Shown here piece by piece: positions 5,241-60,428 of a stretch of 64,000 bases of DNA. Position 1 is the first letter of the stretch, and each line of letters starts with the position of its first letter. The stretch comes from a virus (Duplodnaviria; Heunggongvirae; Uroviricota; Caudoviricetes). The stretch covers positions 20,373 to 84,372 of the IMG/VR virus record IMGVR_UViG_3300031957_002393. One strand, given 5' to 3'. A program made the position numbers and the translations under genes. Under the pieces are notes generated by a model. It was given only the letters and a program-made list of their open reading frames with translations, did no database searches and was not told the origin of the DNA.

Positions 5241-6983
5241 ATGACCGTCACAGCCCCCAACGTAGAGATCAACTTGCCGCTGGGCATGAAGTTGTTTCGG
5301 CCCCCGGGAGCCCACGAACGCTATGACGACATGATGGCACAGTTCTTCGCTACGCCTTATGCGTTTTGTTATGTGTGCCCCATCGTCACAATCAACGATG
5401 TCGTTGAGATGATGCAACCCACGGATAATCAGAAACTGGTGGCAACGAAGGCGCAAGACAGTAGGTTTATTTGGGTTAACAAGTATCGTCAGGCGTTCAT
5501 CACTACACTCATGGACATGATGCTTTTGCGTGATTGTATGTACGGGGAAGGCATTCAGGGCGCGTTCGTTGCACAGAAAGAAGACACCCACAAAGAGCAC
5601 ATGCGGCGCATTTCCTTCACGTACAACAAGATGAAAGAGGATCCCATCCTATCAAAGTTCATCGTGCCGTTGAAGAAGAATACAAGCGCAACGATTTCAG
5701 GTATTGAGTTCATTCACGGTGGTGGTATTTGGCCTATCACTGCGGGCTCTGACAGCCCGGGTGTCGGTCGCTCCTTCTCTCGTGTTGTGGAGACAGAGAG
5801 TTGCGAGATGCCCGCCGAAGACTTCCATAGGCTGAACACAAAGTTCTACCCTACGATCACCAAGCGACCCTTCGGTCGTATTTGGCGAGAGAGCACTCCG
5901 GGTAAAGCAGAAACACCCCAACACCGTGCTTGGCTAAAGGCACTCAAGGGTAACAGTCGATTTGAGCCTGTGTTTTTGAAGTGGTGGGAAGATAGCGTCA
6001 ACACGGTACCCTTGAGTGACAAGTTCTCGCCAATCACAGAAGAAGAGAAGGAATACGCTCGACGCCTTAAAGGCATCACAAAGGGGCACGTTTACTTTCG
6101 CCGCTTTGAGATTAGCGACTTCTGTGACGGTGACGAGAATCTGTTTGAGGTCAAGTACCCGAGCGGCCCTCTCAAGGGTTGGACACGCAGCACAGGCACA
6201 GTGTTCGATCAACACCGTCTACAGAAAATGTACGACACGTCAATCAGCGATGACACGGGACGAAACATCAATCATTACTGCCTCGTTGCCAAGAAGCCCA
6301 ACCCTTATCATCGTTACGTTCTGGTAATCGACCCGACGGACTTCGGGGCCACGGGCGATAATGCGGCTATGATCATGTTTGACCGCTGTGACTGGGAAGA
6401 GGTAGCTAAGTGGGAAGGACGGGAAGACCCTACGAAAAGCTACCCCCGTGCAAAGGAAATGTGCAAATACTACAACAACGCCACAATGGTCATCGAGAGC
6501 AACTGCTCTGCCTTCATTGCCTTAGCTACAAGGGATGACGAACCTGACGCTCCACCAATCTACTACGAAAAGAAAGACAAGCCCGGTTGGCGAGCTACAT
6601 CAAAGTCTATTCAGGAAGGTGAGGCCGCGGTTAATGAGCTACTCAAGGAAGAGGTGTTCACATTGAACTTCGCCTCTACCATTGAGCAGATGCTACACTT
6701 CGATGGTAACAAGCGTGACCGACGAGTACGCAATACCCGTGGCGAAAAAAGTCACTTCGATTCGGCGCGCTGCGCTGTCATCGCCGCTCACTGGCTGTAC
6801 AATGGGGGCTACTGCGCCCCCATCTCGGAGGAAGAGCTGCGGAAGCTACGCGAGGCACAAGCCGAGAGAGACGAGGCTATCGCCCGTGAGCGATTCATCG
6901 CTGCGCTCAAGCGCAACGGACGTTACGAGGATCCCAACGCCGACAGCGTGTGGGCACCTGGGGCAGCTCGGAGGATGATGTGA
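5241..6983 (+). CDS. terL: terminase large subunit (putative)
   Basis: 580 aa. C-terminal region has nuclease-like motifs YVLVIDPTDFGATGDNAAMIMFD and MVIESNCSAF (terminase RNaseH-like D...D...E-x-N pattern); directly precedes portal-sized gene. No canonical Walker A seen, start codon uncertain. Confidence 0.5.
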   Translation: MTVTAPNVEINLPLGMKLFRPPGAHERYDDMMAQFFATPYAFCYVCPIVTINDVVEMMQPTDNQKLVATKAQDSRFIWVNKYRQAFITTLMDMMLLRDCMYGEGIQGAFVAQKEDTHKEHMRRISFTYNKMKEDPILSKFIVPLKKNTSATISGIEFIHGGGIWPITAGSDSPGVGRSFSRVVETESCEMPAEDFHRLNTKFYPTITKRPFGRIWRESTPGKAETPQHRAWLKALKGNSRFEPVFLKWWEDSVNTVPLSDKFSPITEEEKEYARRLKGITKGHVYFRRFEISDFCDGDENLFEVKYPSGPLKGWTRSTGTVFDQHRLQKMYDTSISDDTGRNINHYCLVAKKPNPYHRYVLVIDPTDFGATGDNAAMIMFDRCDWEEVAKWEGREDPTKSYPRAKEMCKYYNNATMVIESNCSAFIALATRDDEPDAPPIYYEKKDKPGWRATSKSIQEGEAAVNELLKEEVFTLNFASTIEQMLHFDGNKRDRRVRNTRGEKSHFDSARCAVIAAHWLYNGGYCAPISEEELRKLREAQAERDEAIARERFIAALKRNGRYEDPNADSVWAPGAARRMM

Positions 6984-9639: not shown

Positions 9640-10728
9640 ATGAGCACGCAGCAAGCCCAAGAGACGCCCATCGAGGGCGGCAACGACACCAGCCAGGACA
9701 CAGGTGCCTCGGGCGCCGGGGTAGACGGCTCGGGTGTTGACACGTCAACAGATAGCGGAGCAGAGGGCGGCGAGGCTATCGAGCCCGCAGAGGGAACCAT
9801 CGACTGGAACGGTGAGGTCGAGTCGCTGCAGAGCGCAGACTGGTTCAAGTCCGATGCAATCCCAGAGGAAGTACGTGGAGCTATTCTCAAAGGCATCCAA
9901 GAGAAAATCAGCAACTATAACCGTCGCACCACAGATGCCTGGACGAAGGCCGCTGAGGAGCGGAAGAAGTTTGAACAGGAGCAAGAGAAGTATCAAGGTG
10001 AGTGGGCGAATAAGCTACAGGACCTTGAGGATCGACGGAACGCATTCCTGCAGGCAGTAGAGAACGAAGGTCAACATGAGGCGTTGACGGCCGAGTTCAA
10101 GAAGATTCAAGCCGAACTACAAGCAAAGAACGAGCGTACATCTGAGCTTGAGACAAAGCTCGAAGCAGCCAACAAACGCTACTCCATCATGGAAGATGAG
10201 ATTCGTGGGGGTGTCAATGACCTCATTGAGCGCTTGAAGAAGGAGAAGATGGAAGTTACACAGCAGCTCGCTGAACGTAACGAAGTCCTGCAGCAAATCG
10301 AGCAACAGCGACTTGAGGCTGAGCACCAGAAGAACTACGAGTACGCAGTTAATCAGGTGCAGAAGTGGCTACCGCACGCAGACAAGATCCAAGAAGCCGA
10401 CATGGACACATTGATTTACGAGGGTAACCAGTTCATGGAACTGTACTACCGTCGTAATGGAGTCGACCCTGATCGCTTCGACCCGAGCAACCCAGAGCAC
10501 ATGAAGGTCAACAAGGGTGCATTGGAGTTCACCGAGCAGCGCCTCAAGCGACTGTACCCGGAACCTGAGAACCCCAACCCTGCTCCCACTGGAGCGCCCG
10601 CTGCAGATGAGTTGGCGAACGGCGGAAAGGGTAGTGTATCGGTAGAGCAAACGGAAACCAAAGCCGATGCGGTGCGGGCAGGACGAAACCCATACGAGCG
10701 GCACATCAAATCCAGTGTCTTCGGATAG
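9640..10728 (+). CDS. scaffold-like coiled-coil protein
   Basis: ATG 9640 with SD GGAGAG 7 nt upstream; acidic N-terminus then long Glu/Lys/Gln-rich heptad-like region (EQEQEKYQGEWANKLQDLEDRRNAFLQAVENEGQHEALTAEFKKIQAELQAK...). Confidence 0.45.
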   Translation: MSTQQAQETPIEGGNDTSQDTGASGAGVDGSGVDTSTDSGAEGGEAIEPAEGTIDWNGEVESLQSADWFKSDAIPEEVRGAILKGIQEKISNYNRRTTDAWTKAAEERKKFEQEQEKYQGEWANKLQDLEDRRNAFLQAVENEGQHEALTAEFKKIQAELQAKNERTSELETKLEAANKRYSIMEDEIRGGVNDLIERLKKEKMEVTQQLAERNEVLQQIEQQRLEAEHQKNYEYAVNQVQKWLPHADKIQEADMDTLIYEGNQFMELYYRRNGVDPDRFDPSNPEHMKVNKGALEFTEQRLKRLYPEPENPNPAPTGAPAADELANGGKGSVSVEQTETKADAVRAGRNPYERHIKSSVFG

Positions 10729-10829: not shown

Positions 10830-11915
10830 TCAGCCATTGGCCATCTCTTCTGCATCACGTTGCGCCACGGCTTGGCGAGCCTCACGGAGCTGAGCGCGTT
10901 TACGGTTACGTTGTTGTTGAACGAACGATGCTACATGAACGCCATTGACAGTAAGACTCTGCATGACAGCTCGGTTCTCGGCGTCGAATACAATATGCAG
11001 CTCAAGAGGCACATCACCTTCATCGTCCACAGGAAGGACAACCACGGGACCAAGGCGCTCCAAGGGCAAGGTAGTGTTTTCTTTGCAGACAAACACCAAC
11101 ACCTCCATAGGCCACCCATCAAACTGCATTCGATCACGGTGCCGAGCGATAGCAGTTTGACGTCCGTGTAGTTGAATACGACTGAACGGAACCGCACAAG
11201 CAACAGCACCGTGTAGCTTGTAATGATTCATGGTCGACACAAGCTTGTTGTCACGGTCGATGGGGTGAGGCACCCAACGCTCAGAGGCAGGCCGCAAAGA
11301 AGGGATGCGTTGAATGACCGCTGACAGAGACAGAGCCGAAGACGCGGAGGGGGAGGGGTCAGGTGTTGACGCGTCAAGAGCCTCAGCCTGCAGGGCCGCC
11401 AACGCCCCCTTGAGCCGCGCCAGCTCCGCCGACACCTCAGCCATCACCGAAGGCACCTCGGACGCAACAGGGGAGAGAGACGGCGAAGCATCATCCCCTC
11501 GGGGCGCATCAACCAGCGGCGCGATCTCCTCACCAAGTAGCTCGGGACCAATGGTGTTACCCTGGACTACATCAGCAGGGATTTCGTCAGGGTCATCACC
11601 ATCGTCGTCTAAATCGAAGATAACTACGGCCGACGGGGTGGAATCAGGCAGTGGATCCGTTGCGTCAAACTTAGTCGATAGCCCCCGCGACGCGGAAGCA
11701 TTAGGATCCACAAGCGACGCGGGATCGATCTCTGTGTCAAGCCACGAACGAGTCGAGTTACTTAGCCCTGGAAAGACTTCCTCGAAACCGTCAGGGGGCT
11801 GAAAGGCATCAGGTAGCAGGAGATGAAGGAGAGTAGATTGAATCCACCCATCCTCCTCTGTGTACACACCCGTAGACGCAAGCCGTTCACGGATAAGTTG
11901 TCGTACAGTAGGCAT
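10830..11915 (-). CDS. hypothetical acidic protein (361 aa)
   Basis: ORF at end of leftward operon; Asp/Pro/Ser-rich central region. Confidence 0.4.
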   Translation of the reverse strand: MPTVRQLIRERLASTGVYTEEDGWIQSTLLHLLLPDAFQPPDGFEEVFPGLSNSTRSWLDTEIDPASLVDPNASASRGLSTKFDATDPLPDSTPSAVVIFDLDDDGDDPDEIPADVVQGNTIGPELLGEEIAPLVDAPRGDDASPSLSPVASEVPSVMAEVSAELARLKGALAALQAEALDASTPDPSPSASSALSLSAVIQRIPSLRPASERWVPHPIDRDNKLVSTMNHYKLHGAVACAVPFSRIQLHGRQTAIARHRDRMQFDGWPMEVLVFVCKENTTLPLERLGPVVVLPVDDEGDVPLELHIVFDAENRAVMQSLTVNGVHVASFVQQQRNRKRAQLREARQAVAQRDAEEMANG

Positions 11916-12713: not shown

Positions 12714-12982
12714 GCGTCACCAAGGGCGCGAGCCTCTGCCTGAACAAACATGTCCCACACCACCTGACATGAACACGATGCCATGTGAGTAGAATAGGAG
12801 TGTAGGAGCGCAGGACACATCGCCGGAGGCATGTGGTTGAACGTCATGCACCAATCAAGGGTAGCTTGACTCAACTTTCCATACACACGATACTCCCACT
12901 CCATCTGCAACAAGCGTGTAATGAAGTTTAGCGCCGCGTTATGAGGGTCAAGCACATTATTGAGGTCAACGGGCTCCATCAT
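12710..12982 (-). CDS. hypothetical protein (90 aa)
   Basis: ATGA-type overlap with upstream RHH gene. Confidence 0.35.
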   Translation of the reverse strand: MMEPVDLNNVLDPHNAALNFITRLLQMEWEYRVYGKLSQATLDWCMTFNHMPPAMCPALLHSYSTHMASCSCQVVWDMFVQAEARALGDA

Positions 12983-13278
12983 TCAACGTCCTCAAGCGGA
13001 AGCGATAGTTGCGTTCCCGTAATAGGACGCTTACCCGCCTTCATCGCGCCTCCGCATTGAAGCCACATGTCACGAAATGTCTCAGGGTCACCATTGGGAT
13101 CAATGGCAGCGGCATTGATCATTGCGGCCAGGGCAGGATGAGCGATTGTACGCATCCAAATAAGCAGGCGCATACCTTCACGGATAGCGGCTGAGCGGTT
13201 GGTGTTGCCCAGGCTCTCATCAAACTCTTCGATAAGGTGCCCGGGGACGGCAATAGAGAAGCGGTGGGTCTCGGCCAT
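12979..13278 (-). CDS. ribbon-helix-helix (CopG/Arc/MetJ-like) transcriptional regulator
   Basis: HRFSIAVPGHLIEEFDESLGNTNRSAAIREGMRLLI = RHH beta-strand + helices; start moved to ATG 13278 (minus-strand SD AAGGAG 6 nt upstream; track ORF extends to 13359). Confidence 0.55.
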   Translation of the reverse strand: MAETHRFSIAVPGHLIEEFDESLGNTNRSAAIREGMRLLIWMRTIAHPALAAMINAAAIDPNGDPETFRDMWLQCGGAMKAGKRPITGTQLSLPLEDVE

Positions 13279-13470
13279 GTAGTAGCTCCTTGCGATCACA
13301 GTGTCGCAGGCATGAGGTTTCATCGTACACGAGCCCACCGTAACCCGCTGGGCGTCCACCGCACAGACATTCAGCGCAAAAAATCACTCGCTTGCACACT
13401 CGCCGCCCCCGAGTTACCTGTGTGAAGGTCGGCGCACAAGGCGCTACGACCAGTGAGGGACCACAGGTCC

Positions 13471-13484
13471 CTTGACACGTCAAG
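13471..13484. promoter_or_regulatory. CTTGACACGTCAAG palindromic site (operator/promoter-like) just upstream of SD of 13501 gene
   Basis: Exact copy of recurrent 12-mer TTGACACGTCAA; contains TTGACA; in divergent intergenic region next to RHH regulator. Confidence 0.5.
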
Positions 13485-13500
13485 ACTTTAGGGAGCAAAC

Positions 13501-14053
13501 CATGCCCATCGTAACCAGTGACGAACATCTGCACATCTTGACGACACTGAAAGGTGCACTCAACGGTAGCGCACGAAAAGACTTCCCTGCAGAGGTGTAC
13601 GATTGCACCTCCGATGACAGCCCTTTCGTTGCGATCGATTGGGTCCATGCAGCTACACGTCAACGACTGCTTCTGTGGCTACTCGATACATGCAACGAAG
13701 TGACGTGGATCAAGAAGGCGGCGCATACAGGCTACCCCATGATCACATGTGCGTTGCTTCAAGACGAGTTCACGATCGACATGGCTTCCCTTTGTTTAGA
13801 CTACGGACCTACAACGGGAGAAGAAGACCAAGCAATCGTGTTGACACAAGCTGTGTTAAGGGCCATTGACGCAATGAAGACAAAGGGTGAGGAAGAAGCA
13901 CCTCCATCGAAGCTACAAGAGATCATGCAACTGCTAACAGACTATGAAGGCGAACGCCTCAAGTACGCAACCCTAGTGACAGACACCAGCGTCAACGTGT
14001 ACAACTACGAACAGAGAAACATCACAACGATTCTACGGGACAATAAGGAGTAG
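13501..14053 (+). CDS. hypothetical protein (184 aa)
   Basis: ATG 13501 with SD AGGGAG 5 nt upstream; track ORF begins earlier at 13472 inside the palindrome. Confidence 0.45.
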
Positions 14054-14056
14054 AGA

Positions 14057-14782
14057 ATGTCGACAGGCATCAACTACAACCTCGACACGGGACTTTACGA
14101 AGTACGCTGCAAGGATCCACTCCCTGTAGAGCAGGGCTACTTGTTTTGTTACCACGCAGCCAAGAATCGAGACATGGCGGAACGGATCGCACGTGAGCAC
14201 GATGGTGTAGTGCGAGCAGCCATCGACTATGAGGCATGCCAGCGAGTACACAAGTTCTGGTCCCTGTTAAGCGGAAAGACTCAACAACCTATACTTACAA
14301 TGGACGTAATGCGAGCAGTCGTGCGAGCAACGTTCAAGGGTCTATGGAGGCAATTGCGTGTGGCTGTAGTCAAAGCGTTAGCACGCAGTCTGCCTTTACG
14401 CGAACAAGATTACAACGCCAACACAATGGCGATCATCTACCTGATTGCAGAGGATGTCAAGAGTCACACGGAGCCCATGACACCAGAGGATAGGGAGGTA
14501 CAATCGCTCATCATCCAGGCGTGTAAGCAAAACGCACGCCTTCGCTACTACTTCGCGGCAGAGTTGAGCATTAACGCAAACCGTAGCGATCGCATGGCAC
14601 CGAACAACATCTGTTACAACATCGCCATGGCGCTGTGGGGTGTAAAGGCAGAAGGTAAATCGCGTAAGGCATGTATGTACTACGACAACGAAGAGTACAT
14701 CAACATGTATCAACACATCAACCAGGATGACGCCCTCGAAGCTACATGGCTGCAGTGGCGAGATGGGACCACAGCCTCTTGA
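14057..14782 (+). CDS. hypothetical protein (241 aa)
   Basis: ORF 3 nt after previous stop; SD AAGGAG upstream. Confidence 0.45.
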   Translation: MSTGINYNLDTGLYEVRCKDPLPVEQGYLFCYHAAKNRDMAERIAREHDGVVRAAIDYEACQRVHKFWSLLSGKTQQPILTMDVMRAVVRATFKGLWRQLRVAVVKALARSLPLREQDYNANTMAIIYLIAEDVKSHTEPMTPEDREVQSLIIQACKQNARLRYYFAAELSINANRSDRMAPNNICYNIAMALWGVKAEGKSRKACMYYDNEEYINMYQHINQDDALEATWLQWRDGTTAS

Positions 14783-14791
14783 CACGTCAAG
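14778..14791. promoter_or_regulatory. CTTGACACGTCAAG palindromic site upstream of SD of 14809 gene
   Basis: Exact 14-bp copy; followed by GAGTAGAAGGAGTAAAAGATG. Confidence 0.5.
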
Positions 14792-14808
14792 AGTAGAAGG
14801 AGTAAAAG

Positions 14809-15174
14809 ATGACGAAGGATCCACAAGCATGGTGCTGCACAAACTGCGGCCACCATTTGGGCGTAGGCATGGAAAATGTGTGCACAATTTGCAAGGTGTG
14901 CACGCAACGCATGTATTGGCAACCATCAGGTTGCTGGGGAATGAAGAAACCACGGGAGGAAGAAGGCATGAGTGACAACGAAGCGACGAAGGACTACATC
15001 AAACAAGCGCTAAAGGAGCAGTTGGCCAGGGAGGTAGAGCGGTGTAACCATATCTGCGAGAAAAGCGTAGAAGCGGAAGTAGCGAGGTACAAAGCAGCCG
15101 CTAAAGCTGCGGGTGTAGACGGTGAGCACAACAACACGACGATTAACGTCGTGGTCACAATCGACTGGTATTAG
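14809..15174 (+). CDS. Cys-rich (zinc-binding) protein (121 aa)
   Basis: WCCTNCGHH...CTICKVCTQ; SD AAGGAG. Confidence 0.45.
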   Translation: MTKDPQAWCCTNCGHHLGVGMENVCTICKVCTQRMYWQPSGCWGMKKPREEEGMSDNEATKDYIKQALKEQLAREVERCNHICEKSVEAEVARYKAAAKAAGVDGEHNNTTINVVVTIDWY

Positions 15175-15188
15175 GAGTAAACACAACC

Positions 15189-15452
15189 ATGGCTGAAGGC
15201 ACGAAGCAACAACTCATAGAAAAGTACAACGAGGCAGTTAACGAACACATCAAACGGATGAAGCATAAGCACCTCAGAGAACTATACAAGTTTGAAGCGA
15301 TCATCTCCGTAGGCAGCGGTGGTAAGTTCCATGCGGTACCAGCGGAATTAGCGATCGCACGGCGCGACAACGTTGACTTCTTGAACACACCTGAACCCAG
15401 CCTAAAGAAGCTGCGTTATTGGGGTAAGAGGTTGAAGGAATTTGAGGGGTAG
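15189..15452 (+). CDS. hypothetical protein (87 aa)
   Basis: ORF with upstream AGGAG; Lys/Glu-rich. Confidence 0.4.
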   Translation: MAEGTKQQLIEKYNEAVNEHIKRMKHKHLRELYKFEAIISVGSGGKFHAVPAELAIARRDNVDFLNTPEPSLKKLRYWGKRLKEFEG

Positions 15453-15517
15453 GAGGAGGCAAATCGACTCGGGGGCGACATGAGCGACACCTCGGGGGCG
15501 ACACCCATCAGCAAAGT

Positions 15518-15531
15518 GTTGACACGTCAAG
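15518..15531. promoter_or_regulatory. GTTGACACGTCAAG palindromic site in noncoding region
   Basis: Third intergenic exact copy within 2 kb; flanked by CTCGGGGGCGACA x2 direct repeat (15490-15505) and CGCCCCCGAGTCTACGGGGGCG hairpin (15559-15580). Confidence 0.45.
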
Positions 15532-15654
15532 AGCACGGGGTGACAGCCCGCGACCACGCCCCCGAGTCTACGGGGGCGAAGGGATAACAACACGAGGAAG
15601 TGAAGAACAGTAGCACGGAGTAACATTGAGTAACAATCACACAGCATCACACCG

Positions 15655-15775
15655 TGATAATTCCAAATTGAAAAATCAAATTTTTTTATTATCATTGATC
15701 AACATAAATAAAACAAGGTTTGCAGCATACGTATAACATAATAGTCAGGTAAATAGGAAAAAGTAGGCGTATTAC
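15655..15775. other. AT-rich island (~120 bp, <30% GC) in otherwise GC-rich genome; candidate DNA-unwinding element/origin or strong promoter region
   Basis: aattccaaattgaaaaatcaaatttttttattatcattgatcaacataaataaaacaagg...; no ORF; followed by TATACGTATA palindrome at 15866. Confidence 0.4.
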
Positions 15776-16011
15776 GAGAGACACATCGCTTAAATCCCGC
15801 GCGCCGCCCTGGGGGGACGGCCTCGGGGGCCTTGAAAAAAATCGTTCCGCACCTCCCTTCGTGTCGATCGGTCATATACGTATACGGGCATGGGGGGTTC
15901 CACTATTCGTGGGGGCACTTAGACTTTCCCCTCGCAAGGGGACGGCGTTAGTGTCAACCGAACACTATACTTATTGTCATCGTGACACTATGTACCGCAC
16001 TGGTAGCTGGC

Positions 16012-16041
16012 ACGAAAAAGCCTCGCAGTGGAAGGCGAGGC
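16012..16041 (-). terminator. rho-independent terminator for minus-strand genes
   Basis: GCCTCGC-AGTGGAAG-GCGAGGC stem-loop; on minus strand followed by TTTTTCG (plus-strand AAAAAG at 16015-16020); 30 nt after stop of 16072 gene. Confidence 0.6.
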
Positions 16042-16071
16042 TATAGGCTTCTGGGTATGGCGACCGGTCGA

Positions 16072-20170: not shown

Positions 20171-20761
20171 ATGGTTGCAAACATCCACCGCCCACACTCT
20201 CACTACCTCGATTACAACCGCAAGCTGCCTGCGGATATCCGGGGCATGGTCGAAAGGATCCACGCTCTCACCGGTGACGCTTCTTTCGGGATCCGGCTAC
20301 ACGCTCCCGGCGGAGGTAAAGCCTACTACAGTATGGTCAAGGTTGACACGTCAACCCCCTGCGGCTACGCGGAAAGCGCACGGCGCCAGAGCTTCACCGG
20401 GCTGGGCCATCTTCGGATCGCTTTGTCAGGATACCTTGCCGCTTTGGAGGAAAAGCTCATGATCGCTACCGTCGTGTGCCTGCATTGGCAGGGGCGCAAC
20501 GATCGTGAAAGCCAGAGCACGGGTAAGATCATGGTCAACGGTCAACCGCTCTGCTACAAAGATGGCGCCCAGGTGCCTGCTCTTTACGACGGCTGCCATC
20601 ATCGCACGGATCACGGTGACGTTCGCCGCATCCTGACTGCGCGGGGCTACAGCGCTTTGATCGACATCGACGTGATCGCTATTCCGGTCGCACGAAAGGG
20701 CGATCTCTACGGTGACTCCGCTCCGCTATGGTCTATCATGGACAAGATCAACGGCGAATAA
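20171..20761 (+). CDS. hypothetical protein (196 aa)
   Basis: SD AAGGAGAT 7 nt upstream; contains an internal TTGACACGTCAA copy. Confidence 0.45.
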   Translation: MVANIHRPHSHYLDYNRKLPADIRGMVERIHALTGDASFGIRLHAPGGGKAYYSMVKVDTSTPCGYAESARRQSFTGLGHLRIALSGYLAALEEKLMIATVVCLHWQGRNDRESQSTGKIMVNGQPLCYKDGAQVPALYDGCHHRTDHGDVRRILTARGYSALIDIDVIAIPVARKGDLYGDSAPLWSIMDKINGE

Positions 20762-24862: not shown

Positions 24863-25101
24863 GGCGGGTCACTGCCTACGGGGTCACCTCCTGACACACC
24901 GCTGCAAGTGAAAGTCAGTTCCAAGTAGCAGCAGGGACCACGCGCCCAAAGGAACCCAACATGCCAGAAGTAGAAAAGGTCCTCGTGCGCTCTGGTGACG
25001 TTGACGTGTGAACACCGATGACTCGTGGCGTTCGGGGGCGTTATCCCCCAGTCGACTCGCCAAAAGGCGACAACACAAAAGCAATACCAGAGGAAAGCAA
25101 C

Positions 25102-26697: not shown

Positions 26698-27213
26698 ATG
26701 TCTGACGGATTCAACCTCATCGGCGCCTATGTTCGCATGAACGGCGACGATGAACACTGGCGTATCATTCGACTGCTTGACACACCTGACGGGCAACGTC
26801 CGCTATGCGTCAACATGACCACGGGCGCGATGATGGACATTGGGTGGCAATATCTTGCCCTCGTGAATATCAGCGCTGTGGAGTCGATGGGTGTGAATGC
26901 CGACGATTCCACAATCACTGGCCTCACAGTCGACTCGGGGTCGATGGCTGACAACGCCACTCCCACGAGCCCAGGTCCAGCAGTTCCAAGTGTTGACACG
27001 TCAACAGGCGAGGCAGGGAACACAGCGCCCGGTCCGAGTCGCAACGAGCTGTTGGAGCTACTGATCGATCTCACCGATGCGTGGGCCTATTCTACACCTG
27101 AACAATTCGACGAGGTGTTTAAACATCAAATGTCAGAGCTGATCGAGAAGCACCCGAGCGCATACGCTTCCATTGTCGAATCGCTACGATTCTACATGGA
27201 TAAAGAAGCGTGA
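26698..27213 (+). CDS. hypothetical protein (171 aa)
   Basis: SD AGGAGAG; contains internal GTTGACACGTCAAC copy. Confidence 0.4.
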   Translation: MSDGFNLIGAYVRMNGDDEHWRIIRLLDTPDGQRPLCVNMTTGAMMDIGWQYLALVNISAVESMGVNADDSTITGLTVDSGSMADNATPTSPGPAVPSVDTSTGEAGNTAPGPSRNELLELLIDLTDAWAYSTPEQFDEVFKHQMSELIEKHPSAYASIVESLRFYMDKEA

Positions 27214-28608: not shown

Positions 28609-28950
28609 ATGCGCATCGAACATGACATGGACATCGATCACTACGGCATCGCACCCCGTGGGCGCCTGCGGCCTCGACACGTCAAGGCCATCACACGGGC
28701 CCAGATTCGGCGCGAGGGAGGCCATGGGCCCGCAGTGGTGGTGCAGGTGGGAGATGGAGGTAGGAGCCAGCGGGAGGCAGAGACGGCGGAGGACGTGCGG
28801 GTGCCTGCAAGGGACAGCGGGTGGATGGAACCCGTGGGTGTGGCTACCCCGGGGATGCACGTTGATGCAGCCCTTGGTGCAGGTATCATGGGAGCTGCGA
28901 TCGCTGTATTGATCTGGTTGCCGAGTGTAGTCCGATCGCTTACGGGGTGA
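28609..28950 (+). CDS. hypothetical protein (113 aa)
   Basis: SD AGGAG 9 nt upstream. Confidence 0.35.
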   Translation: MRIEHDMDIDHYGIAPRGRLRPRHVKAITRAQIRREGGHGPAVVVQVGDGGRSQREAETAEDVRVPARDSGWMEPVGVATPGMHVDAALGAGIMGAAIAVLIWLPSVVRSLTG

Positions 28951-30196: not shown

Positions 30197-30229
30197 AAAG
30201 GTATTACGCGGTGAGTGTCGACACACATG

Positions 30230-31655: not shown

Positions 31656-31964
31656 ATGCAGTTGTTTAAGTCACCTCGTCGACGACGAGTCAGGTACCAT
31701 GGTACCTTGCCTTTCCACAAGAGTTGTAGGGTGTACGACTGTGAAGTCATGATCCCCTACAGAGGCAAAGAGTACAGATACGTCGCTGTCATGCGATCAC
31801 AGGTACCGGGGCTTGAATCAGGTCTCACACTTTACTTCGTGTACGAGAGTGAAGATGGGCGACAGCGGTTGCGGGGACCTGTGGGATGGTGCGACACAGT
31901 GAGCTACAAGTCTGCGTTGCGATCGATCAACATGGTTCTCGTGGGTGACGATGGATCTTCATGA
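31656..31964 (+). CDS. hypothetical protein (102 aa)
   Basis: ATG 31656 ORF embedded in repeat-rich noncoding region. Confidence 0.3.
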   Translation: MQLFKSPRRRRVRYHGTLPFHKSCRVYDCEVMIPYRGKEYRYVAVMRSQVPGLESGLTLYFVYESEDGRQRLRGPVGWCDTVSYKSALRSINMVLVGDDGSS

Positions 31965-33749: not shown

Positions 33750-34021
33750 CAAAGCGTGAACACCCGTAGTTAGACGAGCGAGGAGAAGAAGTTACGAGGT
33801 ACACGTTTCACCCGATCGCACCGTGTTACCCCGAAGACTACACTCCACGTTACTTAACCCGAGTTGACTGTGCTCGTTGGCGCATGAAACTCTTGACATG
33901 TCAACCCCTACACCGTGTGACTTTCGCTTGCCGCCCGTGCCTACCGTGTTACCCTTGGTGCGGGATGCAGGATCCCAGGGCGTTGAGGAACCATAACACT
34001 TTTTCACACAGGAGCATAACG

Positions 34022-34913: not shown

Positions 34914-35342
34914 TTGAGCGTCGTCGAGCCGCAACGCTTCACATTCGCACAGGTAAGCACAGTGAAAGACAAACCTGCACCCAACGTGAACTATCGGTTC
35001 TGCGGTAAGTGTTCTCAGGAACGCTACCGTAGAGAGGATGTCAAGGAAGCAGCTCGTGAGGCAGATAAACTAAGGGCCGATGTTGCTCAGTTGACTCTTG
35101 ACGTGTCAAGGCTTCGAGCTGAAAACAAACGCATTCGGGATCGTCTGCGTGTAGCACTGGACAACGCTGCTTATTGGCAGAGCCTTGCCACTCGTCGCTC
35201 CCGAGTCGATGGGGGCGATGTGTCACCCCTACCCCTCGCTACAATCAAAAAGCTTTTGGCCTTGTGTCACCCCGATCGCCATGATAACAGTGAGCTGAGC
35301 AACGAGGTTACACGTTGGCTCATTAACCAGAGGAAAAAATGA
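34914..35342 (+). CDS. J-domain (DnaJ-like) protein
   Basis: C-terminal IKKLLALCHPDRHDNSELSNEVTRWL contains HPD tripeptide in J-domain helix II/III context; N-terminal coiled coil; start uncertain (TTG 34914); overlaps out-of-frame Zn-ribbon ORF 34802..35008. Confidence 0.45.
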   Translation: MSVVEPQRFTFAQVSTVKDKPAPNVNYRFCGKCSQERYRREDVKEAAREADKLRADVAQLTLDVSRLRAENKRIRDRLRVALDNAAYWQSLATRRSRVDGGDVSPLPLATIKKLLALCHPDRHDNSELSNEVTRWLINQRKK

Positions 35343-46357: not shown

Positions 46358-46719
46358 TGAGTAACGTGGCACCCTACGGCATCTTCATTGACAACGGCTG
46401 TACCATCACAGGTGACACAGTTGATGAGGTGCTTGGCGCGTGGTTTGAGTGCTTTGCTCTTGACATGTCAACCCCTCAGCGAGTGGAGCTGGAGCTGTTG
46501 ACGAGGCCGCGCTTCTGCCGTGGAGGGTGTGACGACGTATCATCTCACACCTGCAACAACCATGGTCTGCACGACGTAGATTATGGTTCATGCGGAAAAC
46601 CTGTCCTTTTACCCTTGCTTCTCTCCTATACATCGGTTACTGCAATTGAGCTGATTGTCGACGGTGACAGTTGGCGTCTACTCGAACCCCATGAAGAATG
46701 GATCAACAATGACTCGTGA
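46345..46719 (+). CDS. hypothetical Cys-containing protein (124 aa)
   Basis: Overlapping start. Confidence 0.35.
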   Translation: MGIVMSNVAPYGIFIDNGCTITGDTVDEVLGAWFECFALDMSTPQRVELELLTRPRFCRGGCDDVSSHTCNNHGLHDVDYGSCGKPVLLPLLLSYTSVTAIELIVDGDSWRLLEPHEEWINNDS

Positions 46720-48110: not shown

Positions 48111-49042
48111 TGTTCGATCCAACCCTGTATGGTTACAACTCTGAACATTTCAATGTCACTGTGCGAGCGGATAGTATCGGACCCAATGGCGTTCGTCTGA
48201 CTACCCTGGAGTGTACATACCCAGACATCATCCACACTCATGTGCTAACGCACCGTGTCTTCTCCCGTAACACCTCCAGCAGTCGAGCAATCCCTACCCG
48301 AAAGCTACTCGGTCGACTCAAGAACCATGTGTTGCCGCTGGTATGGCGCCGTAATCAACGAGGTATGAGCGGAGGAGAAGCGTTTGACCACATGCAAGCA
48401 GGTCGACTAGACTTTATTGTAGATCAATTGGTTGAGGTAACTCGCTTGTCGGTGGGTGAATTGCGCGAACACAAGGTAGCGAAGGAGACAATCAACCGCT
48501 ACATTGAGCACTTCCTCACCCGCACGGTCGTCATCACTTCTACTGAGTGGCAGAACTTCATCAACCTGCGTACAGCGTCGAATGCGCAACCAGAGGTGCA
48601 ACTCTTGGCGACCTTGGTTCGTCAAACCCTTGACACGTCAACCCCTACTACACTGCACCCTCTCCAATGGCACATGCCCTTCATCGACGCTGAGGCAGCG
48701 CAACTGCCCGAGGCTGATCGGCTAAAGGTCTCTGTGGGCCGCTGCGCTCGGGTGAGTTACCTTACCCACGATGGAGAGAGGGATCCGATGAAGGACATTG
48801 CCTTGGCTGATCGACTCCTGGCTGACGGTCACATGTCGCCATTCGAGCATGTAGCTCAGTGTCTACCCCCGGATACATTCGGCATGAGGCTCGATGGTTT
48901 CACTGTTGACGCTTTGCTTGCGTGGAAGGTAGGGTTCACGGAAGCTGAGCTACTCACGTCTAAGCTCTGGTCCGGTAACCTACGTGGTTGGCGCCAGTAC
49001 AGGAAGACTATCCATGGTGAAAGTACCTTCACTCCCTCATGA
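48110..49042 (+). CDS. thyX: flavin-dependent thymidylate synthase ThyX-like
   Basis: LTHRVFSRNTSSSRA fits ThyX signature RHR-x7-S-x-R (HRVFSRNTSSSR vs HRMFSFNQQSQR); FINLRTASNAQPEVQ downstream motif. Confidence 0.55.
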   Translation: MFDPTLYGYNSEHFNVTVRADSIGPNGVRLTTLECTYPDIIHTHVLTHRVFSRNTSSSRAIPTRKLLGRLKNHVLPLVWRRNQRGMSGGEAFDHMQAGRLDFIVDQLVEVTRLSVGELREHKVAKETINRYIEHFLTRTVVITSTEWQNFINLRTASNAQPEVQLLATLVRQTLDTSTPTTLHPLQWHMPFIDAEAAQLPEADRLKVSVGRCARVSYLTHDGERDPMKDIALADRLLADGHMSPFEHVAQCLPPDTFGMRLDGFTVDALLAWKVGFTEAELLTSKLWSGNLRGWRQYRKTIHGESTFTPS

Positions 49043-51145: not shown

Positions 51146-51543
51146 TGGAAGACAGTAAGGTGTTTGATCTCGTCGGGGATCTCAAAGAGAAGTTGACACT
51201 GATTCATAACGCTAACAGTCAGCAGGGAGCGCCTGTTACCAGAGAGGATCTACAGTCAGCGATCGAACAGCTCGGGGACAGATGGATGCGGCCCTGGCTA
51301 TTGACACGTCAAGGGAAACTTGACCTCTCGTCGCCTGACGCAGAAGCGATGATCATTGAGACCTTGGGTGATCATCGTATTACGATCGATCGTGCAGAGA
51401 ACGGATACGTGGCTACTTTCATCTCATCGGGCACGGATGTTGTTGCACCTTTCGTTGCAGGAGGTTATTACCCCAACAAGGCACTTGCGGTCGCAGGCGT
51501 CTACATCAAAGCGTGGAAGCTCAACTTCCCCGGAGAAGAATAG
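51142..51543 (+). CDS. hypothetical protein (133 aa)
   Basis: ATGA overlap; internal TTGACACGTCAA copy. Confidence 0.35.
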   Translation: MMEDSKVFDLVGDLKEKLTLIHNANSQQGAPVTREDLQSAIEQLGDRWMRPWLLTRQGKLDLSSPDAEAMIIETLGDHRITIDRAENGYVATFISSGTDVVAPFVAGGYYPNKALAVAGVYIKAWKLNFPGEE

Positions 51544-51745: not shown

Positions 51746-52165
51746 TTGTTACCTAATAAGAAACGCACCCAAAGGAGACGACAGTTGTACAACCTTCAAA
51801 CACTCAACCGACGCGCACTGCTCGAAAGCTACCTTATGTTGGTAGCTGAGCGTGGAGCCTTGTTTCCTCGTAAAATCGAGATCGAGCACGCTGATCTCGT
51901 AGACTCTCTGCATGAACAGCTCTGCGTCAATTTCTTCGACAACCCTACAATGCGCACGGTCATGACTCCTCTTGTTGCCCTGATTGATGCGGCCCCTGAT
52001 CAGCAGAAAGCAACTATTGCCGTAAATGCTGCCGCCATTATTTACGGCGAAATGGGGCTGTTGGATTCTACGGCTGACAGCGTGAAAGACTACTGCGCTA
52101 AGTTGGCCGAGGCGCTACAAAAGGAGTCGGATGATGCTACGAACGTTCAACCAGACGACGCTTGA
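51746..52165 (+). CDS. hypothetical protein (139 aa)
   Basis: ORF 3 nt after previous stop. Confidence 0.35.
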   Translation: MLPNKKRTQRRRQLYNLQTLNRRALLESYLMLVAERGALFPRKIEIEHADLVDSLHEQLCVNFFDNPTMRTVMTPLVALIDAAPDQQKATIAVNAAAIIYGEMGLLDSTADSVKDYCAKLAEALQKESDDATNVQPDDA

Positions 52166-52781
52166 CATACTACACGCGGTACCGTCCAACACGTACATGC
52201 ATGCCAAAGCTATTGCGGTCAAAGCGGGTTACGCCCGAACGGCAGTTAGCAACCACCTTCGGCTGCTTGAAGCCCTTCGCTGGGTGAATGTGAAGTGGGC
52301 GGATACTCCCCGAGCGCGTTATAAGTACCGTCTGTCTCAGGCGGGTGCTCAGGTACGCGCTACGACCCACAACATTGAGCACACGATTCCACTTTGGGTT
52401 TTTGAAGAGATCCGTCACATCTCATCGGTGCCTGATCACGACCATTTCTACGCTCTTCGAGACCTGGGCTTGTTGGCTGTTGATGGCGATTGCATAGCTG
52501 TGACTGATGCAGGGGAGTTTGCACGTAAAAATATCCGCAGCTACGGTCACTCAACCGTCATGCCTCTGTTTCCTTGGATGTTCGATCTGATGAAGTATAT
52601 TAACGACACCGAGATCGACAACCCTAGCACGCTCATTGCAGGAGGGCGTTGGCCAAACGTTCCAAGAGGCGTAGAAGCGTTGAAGTCGTGGGGGCTTGTG
52701 GAAGAGTTCCATAAGCCGTGGAGCGTTCACATCACTTCGGCTGGAGTGAAGTTGCTCATGTCACTAAAGGAGCGTGTGTGA
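52131..52781 (+). CDS. winged-HTH (ArsR/MarR-like) transcriptional regulator
   Basis: HAKAIAVKAGYARTAVSNHLRLLEALRWVNV...YKYRLSQAG = HTH + wing. Confidence 0.4.
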   Translation: MMLRTFNQTTLDILHAVPSNTYMHAKAIAVKAGYARTAVSNHLRLLEALRWVNVKWADTPRARYKYRLSQAGAQVRATTHNIEHTIPLWVFEEIRHISSVPDHDHFYALRDLGLLAVDGDCIAVTDAGEFARKNIRSYGHSTVMPLFPWMFDLMKYINDTEIDNPSTLIAGGRWPNVPRGVEALKSWGLVEEFHKPWSVHITSAGVKLLMSLKERV

Positions 52782-55127: not shown

Positions 55128-55646
55128 ATGTCCGAGATCGATTTTGTTGCCCTCCAGGCCCAGCAGTCCCAGCTTTCCGAGGACCGCGCTGCCCTTGATT
55201 CCCGCGTGAAGGCCGCTGTTGCCGAGCTACAGGCTGAGCAGGCGGTTGCCATTCAGGAGCTTGAGGCTTCGTTTGCCGGTGAGTACGCCGAGCTGGACGC
55301 TCGTGCCGAGGAGATGCGCAACGCTCTCCGTGGTTCCCCTCTGTTCGATCTTGTCGCCAAGACCGTCGAGGAGGAGCGTGCCAGCGCCCGTGAGTCCGCG
55401 CGTGAGACCAGCCCCCGTGATGTCCTGTCCTACATCGTTGACAACGAGGGCCCCTCCAGCTCCGGTTACGGTGAGATCGGTGAGCACTTCGGTATCACTA
55501 CGCAGACCGCCCGTACCCGCGTCGAGAAGCTGCTTGAGGCGAAGCTCGTGGTCAAGAAGCAGAACCCTGACAACGCCCGCCGCGTTTACTTCGTGGCTGT
55601 CGACGAGGCTCGTGCCGAGTACGACGCCAGGGCTGACGAAGAGTAA
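55128..55646 (+). CDS. coiled-coil protein with C-terminal winged-HTH
   Basis: ATG 55128; EIGEHFGITTQTARTRVEKLLEAKLVVKK HTH-like. Confidence 0.35.
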   Translation: MSEIDFVALQAQQSQLSEDRAALDSRVKAAVAELQAEQAVAIQELEASFAGEYAELDARAEEMRNALRGSPLFDLVAKTVEEERASARESARETSPRDVLSYIVDNEGPSSSGYGEIGEHFGITTQTARTRVEKLLEAKLVVKKQNPDNARRVYFVAVDEARAEYDARADEE

Positions 55647-60039: not shown

Positions 60040-60428
60040 TGGAGGGAGCCATGCCTAAATACTCACGACACACGTTGGACACGTTCAACAATGAAATGTT
60101 TGCTGCGCCTGTAGAGGCAGAAGCTAAGCGCTTTGAGAAGGTGCTCAATACCTACGGCCATAAACATGTACGCTTTGTAGTCGACAAGTATGTCAAGGAG
60201 GGGATCGCTCGCACAGGCACAGAGATGCAGGATGTGTTACGTGTGGCACAGGCTACATTCGGCGGCCCTCGTATGATCGCTCTTGACGTGTCAGCAGCTC
60301 TACGCTTTGCAACCTACACTGCTATTGTACGGGTCGAACGACCGTACATGGACCACATTTGGCCCGACGAGACCATCGGTGAAGAGGTACCTGCTGTCAC
60401 AGAAGAGGCTCCGCTGCCGGAAAACTGA
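60036..60428 (+). CDS. hypothetical protein (130 aa)
   Basis: ATGA overlap. Confidence 0.35.
   Translation: MMEGAMPKYSRHTLDTFNNEMFAAPVEAEAKRFEKVLNTYGHKHVRFVVDKYVKEGIARTGTEMQDVLRVAQATFGGPRMIALDVSAALRFATYTAIVRVERPYMDHIWPDETIGEEVPAVTEEAPLPEN

What the first reader, a model, noticed from the sequence alone, without database searches (positions are those of the whole stretch)
13471..15531. Exact 12-bp inverted-repeat motif TTGACACGTCAA present at least 9 times (operator/promoter-like), with three intergenic copies next to an RHH regulator
Exact copies of TTGACACGTCAA (TTGAC-N2-GTCAA, carrying a sigma70-like TTGACA) were read at 9737, 13472, 14779, 15519, 20344, 26993, 35098 (reverse-strand form), 48630 and 51301. 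Near-copies occur at 28677, 33903, 46462 and 60283. The chance expectation for one specific 12-mer on both strands of 64 kb is about 0.01. Three copies (13471, 14778, 15518), as the 14-mer (C/G)TTGACACGTCAAG, sit about 6-12 bp upstream of Shine-Dalgarno sequences. They lie in the divergent region next to the RHH (Arc/CopG-like) repressor gene 12979-13278. Copies inside genes fall in different reading frames (D-T-S, L-T-R-Q, D-V-S), which argues for selection on the DNA rather than the protein.
Basis: seen in the sequence. Interest (0 to 1): 0.8.

Follow-up and report, generated by a model that had tools for sequence, protein, structure and literature searches.

The report
Dispersed palindromic operator sites in phage
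An uncultivated 92-kb phage carries a dozen perfect copies of one 14-base palindrome, most of them written into its genes, and they look like docking sites for a DNA-binding regulator that acts across the whole genome.

Summary
TTGACACGTCAA occurs 9 times (0.01 expected). The true unit is the palindrome S-TTGAC-RY-GTCAA-S, with 12 perfect copies, 3 one-mismatch copies and almost no decayed copies.

Nine of 11 intragenic copies share one reading frame (V/L-D-x-S). A second frame is barred by the TGA inside the motif. Codon choice is fixed: 9 of 27 D[TVAM]S tripeptides use GAC-RYG-TCA against 0.4 expected.

Two copies are phylogenetic footprints. The 13472 copy is 14/14 identical in a relative whose flanking DNA is about 58% identical. 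The thyX copy (48630) is 14/14 identical in a relative whose ThyX is 46% identical.

The motif is not a sigma-70 promoter and not an RNA structure. In at least 120 bacterial genomes the same 12-mer occurs as paired boxes over a promoter, next to a MarR-family gene. It also forms the core of the footprinted BetI box. It is therefore a classic operator for a helix-turn-helix dimer.

Best reading: a multi-copy operator for a phage DNA-binding protein. Candidates are the winged-helix proteins at 52131-52781 and 55128-55646. The ribbon-helix-helix protein is linked only by position. Its function remains untested.

The parts
13472..13483 (.). Perfect copy (cTTGACACGTCAAg). It lies in the divergent intergenic region between the RHH-like gene (leftward) and gene 13502-14053 (rightward), 19 nt before the ATG.
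   Evidence: The 14-mer is 14/14 identical at the orthologous place in L147, where the remaining intergenic DNA is 58% identical.
14779..14790 (.). Perfect copy. Its internal TGA is the stop codon of gene 14057-14782. It ends 19 nt before the ATG at 14809.
15519..15530 (.). Perfect copy in the 620-nt noncoding stretch 15453-16071. It is flanked by three copies of the second repeat (15467, 15490, 15559).
9737..9748 (.). Perfect copy inside gene 9640-10728 (putative capsid protein), in the V-D-T-S-T frame.
   Evidence: It is not present at the orthologous place in L128, a relative whose portal is 69% identical.
11366..11377 (.). Perfect copy with GC centre, inside the minus-strand gene 10830-11915. 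Read as L-D-A-S-T-P on that gene's sense strand.
20343..20354 (.). Perfect copy inside gene 20171-20761 (V-D-T-S-T-P).
26993..27004 (.). Perfect copy inside gene 26698-27213 (V-D-T-S-T-G).
33893..33904 (.). Perfect copy with AT centre, intergenic, 118 nt before the ATG at 34022 and 32 nt after a second-repeat copy (33861).
35098..35109 (.). Perfect copy (GT centre on the + strand) inside gene 34914-35342 (L-D-V-S-R).
46460..46471 (.). Perfect copy with AT centre inside gene 46345-46719 (L-D-M-S-T-P).
48630..48641 (.). Perfect copy inside thyX (48110-49042), at codons L174-D-T-S177.
   Evidence: C-TTGACACGTCAA-C is conserved at the orthologous codons of L268, whose ThyX is 46% identical and keeps the same codon at only 39% of conserved residues.
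51301..51312 (.). Perfect copy inside gene 51145-51543. It is the only intragenic copy in the other open frame (L-T-R-Q).
25001..25012 (.). One-mismatch copy (TTGACGTGTGAA), intergenic, 46 nt from a second-repeat copy (25047).
28674..28685 (.). One-mismatch copy (TCGACACGTCAA) inside gene 28609-28950. It sits in the frame where a perfect copy would create a TGA stop, and the mismatch removes that stop.
60283..60294 (.). One-mismatch copy inside gene 60051-60428 (L-D-V-S-A).
13402..13428 (+). Copy of the second repeat (GCCGCCCCCGAGTTACCTGTGTGAAGG), 44 nt upstream of the 13472 site. It may be part of the same control region.
   Evidence: 27/27 identical in L147. Six of 15 TTGAC sites have such a repeat within 80 bp, against 1.0 expected (P=1.5e-4).
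12979..13278 (-). RHH-like gene (99 aa), candidate binder by position only.
   Evidence: The N-terminal 40 aa match the NikR RHH domain 2bj1_A, E=0.005. The AF2 model shows strand-helix-helix but at pLDDT 53. No Pfam or PHROG hit. The only homologue is P0007, 63% identical.
52131..52781 (+). Winged-helix protein (216 aa) with an ArsR/MarR-type recognition helix (YARTAVSNHLRLLE). Candidate binder.
   Evidence: Weak Pfam hits to MarR_2, HTH_IclR and HTH_5 and to NCBIfam ArsR/SmtB. It is the best match among 98 window proteins to the HMM of the bacterial MarR subfamily that sits beside paired TTGACRYGTCAA boxes, but the match is weak (E=0.06; hhalign E=0.004). The helix core AGYARTAV is 8/8 identical in homologue P0010, which is 32% identical overall. 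P0010's contig L268 keeps the motif.
55128..55646 (+). Coiled-coil plus MarR-type winged-helix protein (172 aa). Candidate binder.
   Evidence: Pfam MarR_2 scores 28.1 bits against a cut-off of 27. The N-terminal part has a homologue at the end of L268.

Best explanation
The 14-bp palindrome S-TTGAC-RY-GTCAA-S is a high-affinity docking site for a symmetric (dimeric) sequence-specific DNA-binding protein, most likely of the helix-turn-helix or winged-helix class and encoded by the phage. The phage keeps about one site per 4-5 kb across its early and middle gene region.

Shown:
- The sites are real and are kept perfect.
- They are selected as DNA even inside genes.
- They are placed only where the reading frame tolerates them.
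- At least two are conserved in diverged relatives.
- The same sequence is used as an operator by bacterial MarR-family and TetR-family (BetI) repressors.

Inferred:
- Bound protein represses or times transcription. At the 13472 site it would sit between a conserved upstream block and the ribosome-binding site of gene 13502-14053.
- Three sites bracket the four-gene unit 13502-15452.
- Intragenic sites would act as roadblocks or as anchors for looping or spreading.

The binder is not identified. The winged-helix proteins at 52131-52781 and 55128-55646 fit best by family. The RHH protein at 12979-13278 fits only by position.
For: - Counts against shuffles: 9 exact vs 0.01 expected, and 12 vs 0.03 for the degenerate palindrome.
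- Mismatch spectrum: 12 perfect, 3 with one mismatch and 4 with two, where about 10 sites with up to two mismatches are expected by chance. There is no decay tail.
- Flanks are G or C on 23 of 24 sides.
- Codon evidence: 9 of 27 D[TVAM]S tripeptides are encoded GAC-RYG-TCA against 0.42 expected, and TCA is the rarest Ser codon at 9%.
- Frame logic: the frame carrying TGA is used only where a stop is wanted (14779) or where a mismatch removes the stop (28674).
- Footprint 1: the 14-mer is 14/14 in L147, where the other intergenic DNA is 58% identical and third codon positions 55%.
- Footprint 2: the 14-mer is 14/14 inside thyX of L268, while the positions just outside it differ and only 39% of conserved residues keep their codon.
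- Operator class: at least 120 bacterial loci (about 1 expected by chance) have two such boxes 15-17 bp apart. Box 1 supplies the -35. A TATGAT-like -10 abuts box 2 in 56 of 72 loci. A MarR-family gene is adjacent in 78 of 120.
- The BetI box ATTGACGCGTCAAT has been footprinted (PMC12442346).
- The phage encodes winged-helix proteins. One of them keeps its recognition helix in a relative that also keeps the motif.
Against: - No binding or expression data exist.
- The match between the phage winged-helix proteins and the bacterial MarR subfamily is weak (5 bits; hhalign probability 8%).
- Phage sites are single, not paired, and do not overlap recognisable promoters.
- Eight of 12 perfect copies are intragenic, and enrichment in noncoding DNA is not significant (P=0.07).
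- One intragenic copy (9737) is absent from a closer relative, so not every site is conserved.
- No lysogeny genes were seen in the window, so a silencing role has no obvious setting.
- About 29 kb of the genome was not examined.
- Both AF2 models were too poor to use.
Confidence: 0.55

Rival explanations
1. The RHH protein (12979-13278) is the binder, and the motif is its operator.
For: - The gene is RHH-like.
- It lies beside the densest group of sites, 3 within 2.1 kb.
- Its only homologue, P0007, has the same 14-mer about 200 bp upstream together with a conserved intergenic block.
Against: - The link is adjacency only.
- The conserved site lies 194 bp from the RHH start codon but only 19 nt from the start of the divergent gene.
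- From general knowledge of Arc, MetJ and CopG structures, RHH dimers read short subsites of 4-8 bp, usually in tandem, not a single 14-bp palindrome.
- The bacterial and literature precedents for this exact sequence are winged-helix (MarR) and TetR-type HTH proteins.
- No Pfam RHH model matches the protein.
Confidence: 0.2
2. A host transcription factor, such as a MarR-subfamily or BetI-like repressor, binds the sites. The phage either senses host state through it or titrates it away as the genome replicates.
For: - The same 12-mer is a widespread bacterial operator.
- A distant relative (portal 37% identical) has one copy in the analogous divergent noncoding region.
Against: - Bacterial boxes are flanked by R and Y (83% purine on the 5' side), whereas phage sites are flanked by S with C on half of the sides. 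This suggests a different reader.
- The host is unknown.
- The bacterial loci are mostly in genomes of 65-73% G+C (G+C range from general knowledge of these actinomycete genera, not measured here), while the phage is 54%.
- The single copy in the distant relative is not significant after allowing for the number of loci inspected.
Confidence: 0.12
3. The sites serve a DNA function other than transcription. Options are anchoring or partition (ParB/KorB-like), replication, recombination hot spots, or targets of a phage nuclease or methyltransferase.
For: - Perfect palindromes spread at kilobase intervals, mostly inside genes and with no decay tail, resemble parS or KorB OB sets more than ordinary regulons.
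- Sites are rarer in the structural module: 1 in 18.7 kb against 14 in 50.5 kb.
Against: - No ParB N-terminal domain, ParA, methyltransferase or restriction-type nuclease was found among the window proteins. There is only a faint HTH_ParB hit for 52131-52781.
- The best-conserved copy sits in a control region next to a ribosome-binding site.
Confidence: 0.13
4. The copies are sigma-70-type promoters (TTGACA as the -35), or back-to-back -35 elements.
For: The motif contains TTGACA on one strand and TTGACG on the other. In the bacterial loci, box 1 really is the -35.
Against: - No copy has a TAnnnT hexamer at 16-18 nt on either side.
- Eight of 12 copies are inside genes.
- The start codons at 13502 and 14809 lie only 30 nt after the start of the motif, which leaves no room for a -10 and a leader.
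Confidence: 0.03
5. The motif acts in RNA as a hairpin operator, or it reflects a selected peptide motif (L/V-D-T-S-T-P).
For: - Nine of 11 intragenic copies share one frame.
- AC centres are mostly in the sense orientation.
- Two copies abut Shine-Dalgarno sequences.
Against: - The RNA hairpin is only a 4-7 bp stem with a CACG loop. It forms in 2 of 5 contexts and is no more stable than shuffles.
- Rfam finds only tRNAs.
- Four perfect copies are noncoding.
- Every instance of the peptide uses the same codons, with no synonymous variants.
- The sense bias of AC is simply the choice of Thr (ACG) over Val (GTG).
Confidence: 0.04

Closest known systems
Paired operator boxes of a MarR-family / LLM-monooxygenase divergon in Actinomycetota and Paenibacillus
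   Same: The 12-mer TTGACRYGTCAA is identical, with the same four centres (AC, GT, GC, AT). It is a palindrome suited to a winged-helix dimer.
   Different: In bacteria there are two boxes 15-17 bp apart over one promoter, next to the regulator gene, with R/Y flanks. In the phage the boxes are single, kilobases apart, mostly inside genes, with S flanks.
BetI box (TetR family), e.g. ATTGACGCGTCAAT in Ruegeria pomeroyi (PMC12442346)
   Same: It contains TTGACGCGTCAA exactly, is footprinted, and covers a -35 element.
   Different: The flanks are A/T. It regulates choline catabolism genes. No TetR-family protein was found in the window. Most phage copies have an AC centre.
Stoperators of Cluster A mycobacteriophages (L5 and relatives; PMC9283540)
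   Same: More than twenty repressor sites are spread through a phage genome, in promoters and within transcription units, and they stop elongation as well as initiation.
   Different: Stoperators are asymmetric 13-mers bound by a monomer. They are orientation-dependent, lie in short intergenic spaces, and belong to temperate phages. Here the site is a palindrome, mostly intragenic, and no lysogeny genes were seen.
KorB OB sites of plasmid RK2 (PMC11790492)
   Same: One palindrome (TTTAGCGGCTAAA) is repeated around a mobile genome, at promoters and far from them, and gives long-range silencing. That RK2 has 12 such sites is from my own knowledge.
   Different: KorB is a ParB-family CTP-dependent clamp. 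No ParB-type N-terminal domain was found here.

Membership tests
Sigma-70-type promoter | A -35 TTGACA followed at 16-18 nt by a TAnnnT -10, with a transcript start downstream | tested here: not met
   No copy has a -10-like hexamer at the right spacing on either strand. Transcript starts cannot be tested with these tools.
MarR-family operator (the subfamily found) | Sequence TTGACRYGTCAA | tested here: met
   12 exact copies. The bacterial boxes use the same four centres.
MarR-family operator (the subfamily found) | Two boxes 15-17 bp apart overlapping the -35 and the start site of a promoter, beside the regulator gene | tested here: not met
   The nearest neighbouring sites are 740 bp apart. 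No promoter overlaps them. The winged-helix genes at 52131 and 55128 have no site directly upstream.
MarR-family operator (the subfamily found) | A cognate regulator with recognition helix W-[ED]-[RK]-S-R-L-S-H-H-L | tested here: inconclusive
   The protein at 52131-52781 has Y-A-R-T-A-V-S-N-H-L and is the top hit of the family HMM, but only at 5 bits, E=0.06, and hhalign E=0.004 with probability 8%.
RHH (Arc/CopG/NikR-type) repressor with its operator | A protein with the strand-helix-helix fold | tested here: inconclusive
   The NikR RHH domain matches at E=0.005 over 40 aa. No Pfam hit. The AF2 secondary structure fits, but pLDDT is 53.
RHH (Arc/CopG/NikR-type) repressor with its operator | The protein binds the repeated site | not testable with these tools
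   Only adjacency and conserved synteny with L147 are available.
Stoperator system (Cluster A mycobacteriophages) | Asymmetric site whose orientation follows transcription | tested here: not met
   The site is a palindrome. Only the central dinucleotide is asymmetric, and its sense bias is explained by the choice of Thr over Val codons.
Stoperator system (Cluster A mycobacteriophages) | Sites lie in short intergenic spaces of a temperate phage with an L5-type repressor | tested here: not met
   Eight of 12 copies are intragenic. No integrase or L5-type repressor appears among the Pfam hits. About 29 kb of the genome was not seen.
ParB/KorB with parS/OB sites | A dispersed, perfectly conserved palindrome | tested here: met
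ParB/KorB with parS/OB sites | A ParB-family protein (N-terminal CTPase domain) and usually a ParA | tested here: not met
   Neither appears in the Pfam scans of 98 window proteins. There is only a faint HTH_ParB hit (E=0.025) for 52131-52781.
BetI box (TetR family) | A TetR-family regulator and A/T-flanked TTGA-N-CG-N-TCAA boxes at bet genes | tested here: not met
   No TetR_N hit and no bet genes. The phage flanks are G/C.
Structured RNA element | A stable or covarying RNA fold, or an Rfam match | tested here: not met
   Folding z-scores range from +0.65 to -2.2, and the motif hairpin forms in 2 of 5 contexts. Rfam finds only tRNAs.

The most novel reading that the evidence does not exclude
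A probably lytic phage uses a palindromic, genome-wide set of sites written into its own coding sequences. A phage winged-helix protein (52131-52781, which appears to hold several winged-helix-like modules) binds them to impose timed, long-range silencing or genome organisation. This would be a symmetric, intragenic counterpart of stoperators or KorB OB sites, working without a ParB clamp or a lysogeny switch. The second repeat (CGCCCCCGAGTYNNCTGTG) would be its partner element in composite control regions.
Probability: 0.2. Interest if true: 0.7.

Novelty: new member of a known kind. Interest (0 to 1): 0.5.

Why it matters
If confirmed, this would be a clean natural example of a regulatory DNA word maintained inside protein-coding sequence. 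The word is allowed in only two of three frames. Once it supplies a stop codon, and once it is mutated to avoid creating one. It is conserved in thyX between phages whose ThyX proteins are less than 50% identical.

It would also provide a ready handle, a single 14-mer, for finding the master regulator of an uncultivated phage lineage that has almost no annotated genes.

As a by-product, the work points to an apparently undescribed MarR-family regulon in actinomycetes and Paenibacillus whose operator can now be predicted.

Tried and rejected
- Sigma-70 promoter reading: rejected, because no -10 is present.
- RNA hairpin or known RNA family: rejected.
- Peptide-motif reading: rejected, because codons are invariant and four copies are noncoding.
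- Strand-specific function inferred from the 8:1 strand bias: rejected, because in genes the bias is the choice of Thr over Val.
- Noncoding enrichment: not significant (P=0.07).
- Cultured phage relatives: none by DNA or by portal protein. The large terminase and the primase give only about 22% identity hits.
- IMG/VR: it does not hold this lineage. The 14-mer scan returned unrelated contigs, some with arrays of the core, which share no protein with the window.
- Portal relatives at 30-43% identity lack the motif, except for one copy in L125.
- Homologue searches for the RHH protein and for gene 14057-14782 gave one hit and none.
- AF2 models of the RHH protein and of 52131-52781 were too poor for fold searches (pLDDT 53 and 40).
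- The F-sopC-like inverted repeat GGGACCACAGGTCCC beside the 13472 copy is not conserved in L147.
- Sample accessions were not found in any paper.
- The 12-mers are absent from the literature library except in the BetI box.
Full report
**Observation**

TTGACACGTCAA occurs 9 times in the 64-kb window, 8 on the + strand. Dinucleotide-preserving shuffles give 0.01. Allowing one mismatch adds copies whose only change is the central dinucleotide. The unit is therefore the degenerate perfect palindrome TTGAC-RY-GTCAA, with 12 exact copies against 0.03 expected.

Only 3 further copies have one mismatch and 4 have two. About 10 sites with up to two mismatches are expected by chance, so there is no tail of decaying copies.

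The bases on either side are G or C on 23 of 24 sides at 54% G+C, so the conserved word is 14 bp.

It missed 11366 and 25001.

**Setting**

The window comes from an uncultivated phage. Identical DNA is found in JGI contig Ga0565006_000107 (92,564 bp) and in two Logan assemblies.

Recognisable genes:
- an SU10-type portal, a DUF927 primase-helicase and a helicase;
- ThyX, PTH2, a MazG-like protein and an SPFH protein;
- six tRNAs.

Nothing similar exists among 50,697 deposited phage genomes at the DNA level or for the portal. Most proteins have no family assignment.

One further copy lies in the 9 kb upstream of the window (L121:18551). About 20 kb of the contig could not be fetched.

**Where the copies lie**

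Gene calls came from my own caller and agree with the JGI calls.

Four perfect copies are noncoding or terminal:
- 13472, which ends 19 nt before the ATG at 13502;
- 14779, which ends 19 nt before the ATG at 14809;
- 15519, inside a 620-nt noncoding stretch;
- 33893.

Eight copies are inside genes. With 13.7% of the window noncoding, 4 of 12 is not a significant enrichment (P=0.07).

**Reading frames**

They do not. On each gene's own sense strand, 9 of the 11 intragenic copies (8 perfect and 3 near) are read xTT-GAC-RYG-TCA-Axx, giving V/L-D-(T/V/A/M)-S. One copy (51301) is read TTG-ACA-CGT-CAA.

The third frame contains TGA and appears only twice:
- At 14779 the TGA is the real stop codon of gene 14057-14782.
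- At 28674 the single mismatch (TCGAC) removes the stop.

The strand bias of the AC centre follows from this, because ACG codes Thr and GTG codes Val. It is not evidence for a strand-specific function.

**Selection is nevertheless on the DNA**

The predicted proteome has 27 D[TVAM]S tripeptides. Nine of them are encoded GAC-RYG-TCA, where codon usage predicts 0.42. TCA is the rarest serine codon at 9%.

All seven [LVIF]-D-[TVAM]-S-x peptides are motif copies, and none uses synonymous codons. Four perfect copies are not translated at all.

**Comparative evidence**

Relatives are scarce, but three contigs are informative.

1. *L147.* The RHH-like protein has a single homologue among 5.8 billion proteins, P0007 at 63% identity, on the 547-bp contig L147.
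   - Its 208 bp of upstream DNA align with the window.
   - CTTGACGTGTCAAG is 14/14 identical at the orthologous place.
   - A second block, window 13402-13428, is 27/27 identical.
   - The rest of the intergenic DNA is 58% identical and third codon positions are 55% identical.

2. *L268.* The winged-helix protein at 52131-52781 has a homologue, P0010, on the 7.9-kb contig L268, which is syntenic with window 48.1-55.6 kb.
   - L268 has one perfect copy, at the orthologous codons of thyX (L174-D-T-S177).
   - The 14-mer C-TTGACACGTCAA-C is identical in the two phages.
   - The bases just outside it differ, and the flanking residues are diverged.
   - ThyX is 46% identical, and only 39% of conserved residues keep their codon.

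3. *L128.* The 9737 copy is absent from L128, whose portal is 69% identical. Not every copy is conserved.

More distant portal relatives (30-43% identity) lack the motif, apart from one copy in a noncoding region of L125. That single copy is not significant once the number of loci inspected is allowed for.

**What the motif is not**

- *Not a sigma-70 promoter.* No copy has a -10 at the right spacing on either strand. Two copies are followed by a start codon within 30 nt.
- *Not an RNA element.* The possible hairpin forms in 2 of 5 contexts and is no more stable than shuffles. Rfam finds only tRNAs.
- *Not part of a longer repeat.* The flanks are unrelated. Four copies do share a CCCCT extension.

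**What kind of site it is**

The architecture of these loci is consistent:
- The spacer is 15-17 bp in 72 of 120 loci.
- Box 1 supplies the -35.
- A TATGAT-like -10 straddles the start of box 2 in 56 of those 72 loci.
- A MarR-family gene is adjacent in 78 loci.
- An Atu2307/SP_0267-type LLM monooxygenase gene is adjacent in 60 loci.

This is the textbook layout of a repressor-controlled divergon, so the 12-mer is the operator of a widespread MarR subfamily. That subfamily's recognition helix is W-[ED]-[RK]-S-R-L-S-H-H-L.

The literature library holds none of the four 12-mers except in the BetI box ATTGACGCGTCAAT of Ruegeria, which was footprinted and gel-shifted.

Unrelated viral contigs also carry arrays of the core, such as twelve boxes in 400 bp in L094.

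The word is therefore a proven docking site for symmetric helix-turn-helix dimers from more than one family.

**Candidate binders in the phage**

- *55128-55646.* Pfam finds a MarR_2 domain just above its cut-off, following a coiled coil.
- *52131-52781.* Weaker winged-helix signals.
- *35781-36596.* An HTH_23 protein.

Among the 98 window proteins, 52131-52781 is the best match to the HMM of the bacterial MarR subfamily. Its aligned helix is Y-A-R-T-A-V-S-N-H-L. The score is weak: 5 bits, E=0.06, and hhalign E=0.004 with probability 8%. The helix core AGYARTAV is 8/8 identical in P0010, which is 32% identical overall.

The RHH-like protein matches the NikR RHH domain (E=0.005) but no Pfam model. 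Its link to the motif is adjacency and conserved synteny only.

Phage sites are flanked by G/C, with C on half of the sides. Bacterial boxes are flanked by purine and pyrimidine. This argues for a reader distinct from the bacterial regulators.

**Mechanism**

Shown:
- The sites are maintained as DNA.
- They are symmetric.
- They belong to an operator class.
- Two of them are conserved in relatives.

Inferred:
- A phage-encoded dimer binds them and controls transcription.
- At 13472 it would sit between a conserved upstream block and the ribosome-binding site of the first gene of a four-gene unit. That unit is bracketed by three sites.
- Elsewhere the sites would act as roadblocks or as anchors for looping.

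The closest functional analogues are stoperators (PMC9283540) and KorB OB sites (PMC11790492). Membership in either family fails on defining features:
- the site is symmetric rather than asymmetric;
- most copies are intragenic;
- no L5-type repressor was found;
- no ParB domain was found.

A role outside transcription, or capture of a host regulator, cannot be excluded.

**Second repeat**

A second word, CGCCCCCGAGT(C/T)NNCTG(T/G)G, often forms a G+C-rich hairpin. It has about 20 strict copies, clustered at 29.8-32.4 kb and 15.5-15.8 kb.

Six of the 15 TTGAC sites have one within 80 bp, against 1.0 expected (P=1.5e-4). The copy next to 13472 is fully conserved in L147. The two words may form composite control regions. 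I did not resolve what the second one does.

**Verdict**

This is a real, strongly non-random and evolutionarily maintained DNA word of the operator type. It is most likely the multi-copy binding site of a phage helix-turn-helix regulator.

It was wrong about promoters and reading frames, and it had only positional grounds for naming the RHH protein.

I class the finding as a new member of a known kind, dispersed repressor sites in a mobile genome. Its unusual feature is how clearly the coding frame shapes where the sites can sit.

Noticed in passing
window 29770-32380, 15460-15830, 13402-13428 and about 10 other places: A second repeat family, CGCCCCCGAGT(C/T)NNCTG(T/G)G, often folds into a hairpin of the form CCCCCGAGTCGA-CGGGGG. 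There are about 20 strict copies, mostly intergenic and in both orientations. It is spatially associated with the TTGAC sites (6 of 15 within 80 bp, P=1.5e-4). One copy is 27/27 conserved in L147. It is absent from IMG/VR.
   Followed up: partly
window 30230-30895 (-): A 221-aa protein with a weak HTH_23 signal sits in the middle of the second-repeat cluster. Its only relative (L125:7290-7703) lies next to the large terminase gene, so it may be a displaced small terminase with a pac-like repeat field around it.
   Followed up: no
whole window: CGATCG occurs 66 times against 18 expected from base composition, and GCGATCGC (the cyanobacterial HIP1 word) 11 times against 1.3. This is a possible clue to the host.
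   Followed up: no
window 15453-16071: A 620-nt noncoding stretch between convergently arranged gene blocks has an A+T-rich core (about 15650-15790) and iterated TCGGGGGCGACA words. It looks like an origin or a promoter hub.
   Followed up: no
window 13457-13471: GGGACCACAGGTCCC is an inverted repeat resembling the F-plasmid sopC SopB site with one extra central base. It abuts the 13472 copy. It is not conserved in L147, so it is probably chance.
   Followed up: yes
loci L148-L267 (GTDB genomes): At least 120 bacterial genomes, mostly Micromonospora, Streptomyces, Actinoplanes, Amycolatopsis and Paenibacillus, carry two TTGACRYGTCAA boxes 15-17 bp apart over a promoter. The promoter lies between a MarR-family gene and an Atu2307/SP_0267-type LLM monooxygenase gene. 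No paper in the library mentions these boxes.
   Followed up: partly
L094:2937-3335; L065:5138-5180 and 6276-6330; L022:470-620: Viral contigs unrelated to this phage carry dense arrays of the same core (TGACRYGTCA) in long noncoding regions or upstream of small operons. L094 has twelve boxes in 400 bp. The others have a 16-bp period.
   Followed up: partly
window 52131-52781: The 216-aa protein appears to hold three winged-helix-like modules in tandem, at residues about 7-75, 86-134 and 145-212. Its only real homologue (P0010) shares the layout. The AF2 model was too poor to confirm this.
   Followed up: partly
window 38355-42930: Cluster of six tRNA genes (Gln, one of undetermined identity, Asn, Phe, Lys, Thr), next to a PTH2 peptidyl-tRNA hydrolase gene (38723-39097).
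   Followed up: no
L121:19562 onward (upstream of the window): A gene for a 2415-aa protein starts here in the structural module. It could be a virion-associated giant protein. The sequence was not retrievable.
   Followed up: no
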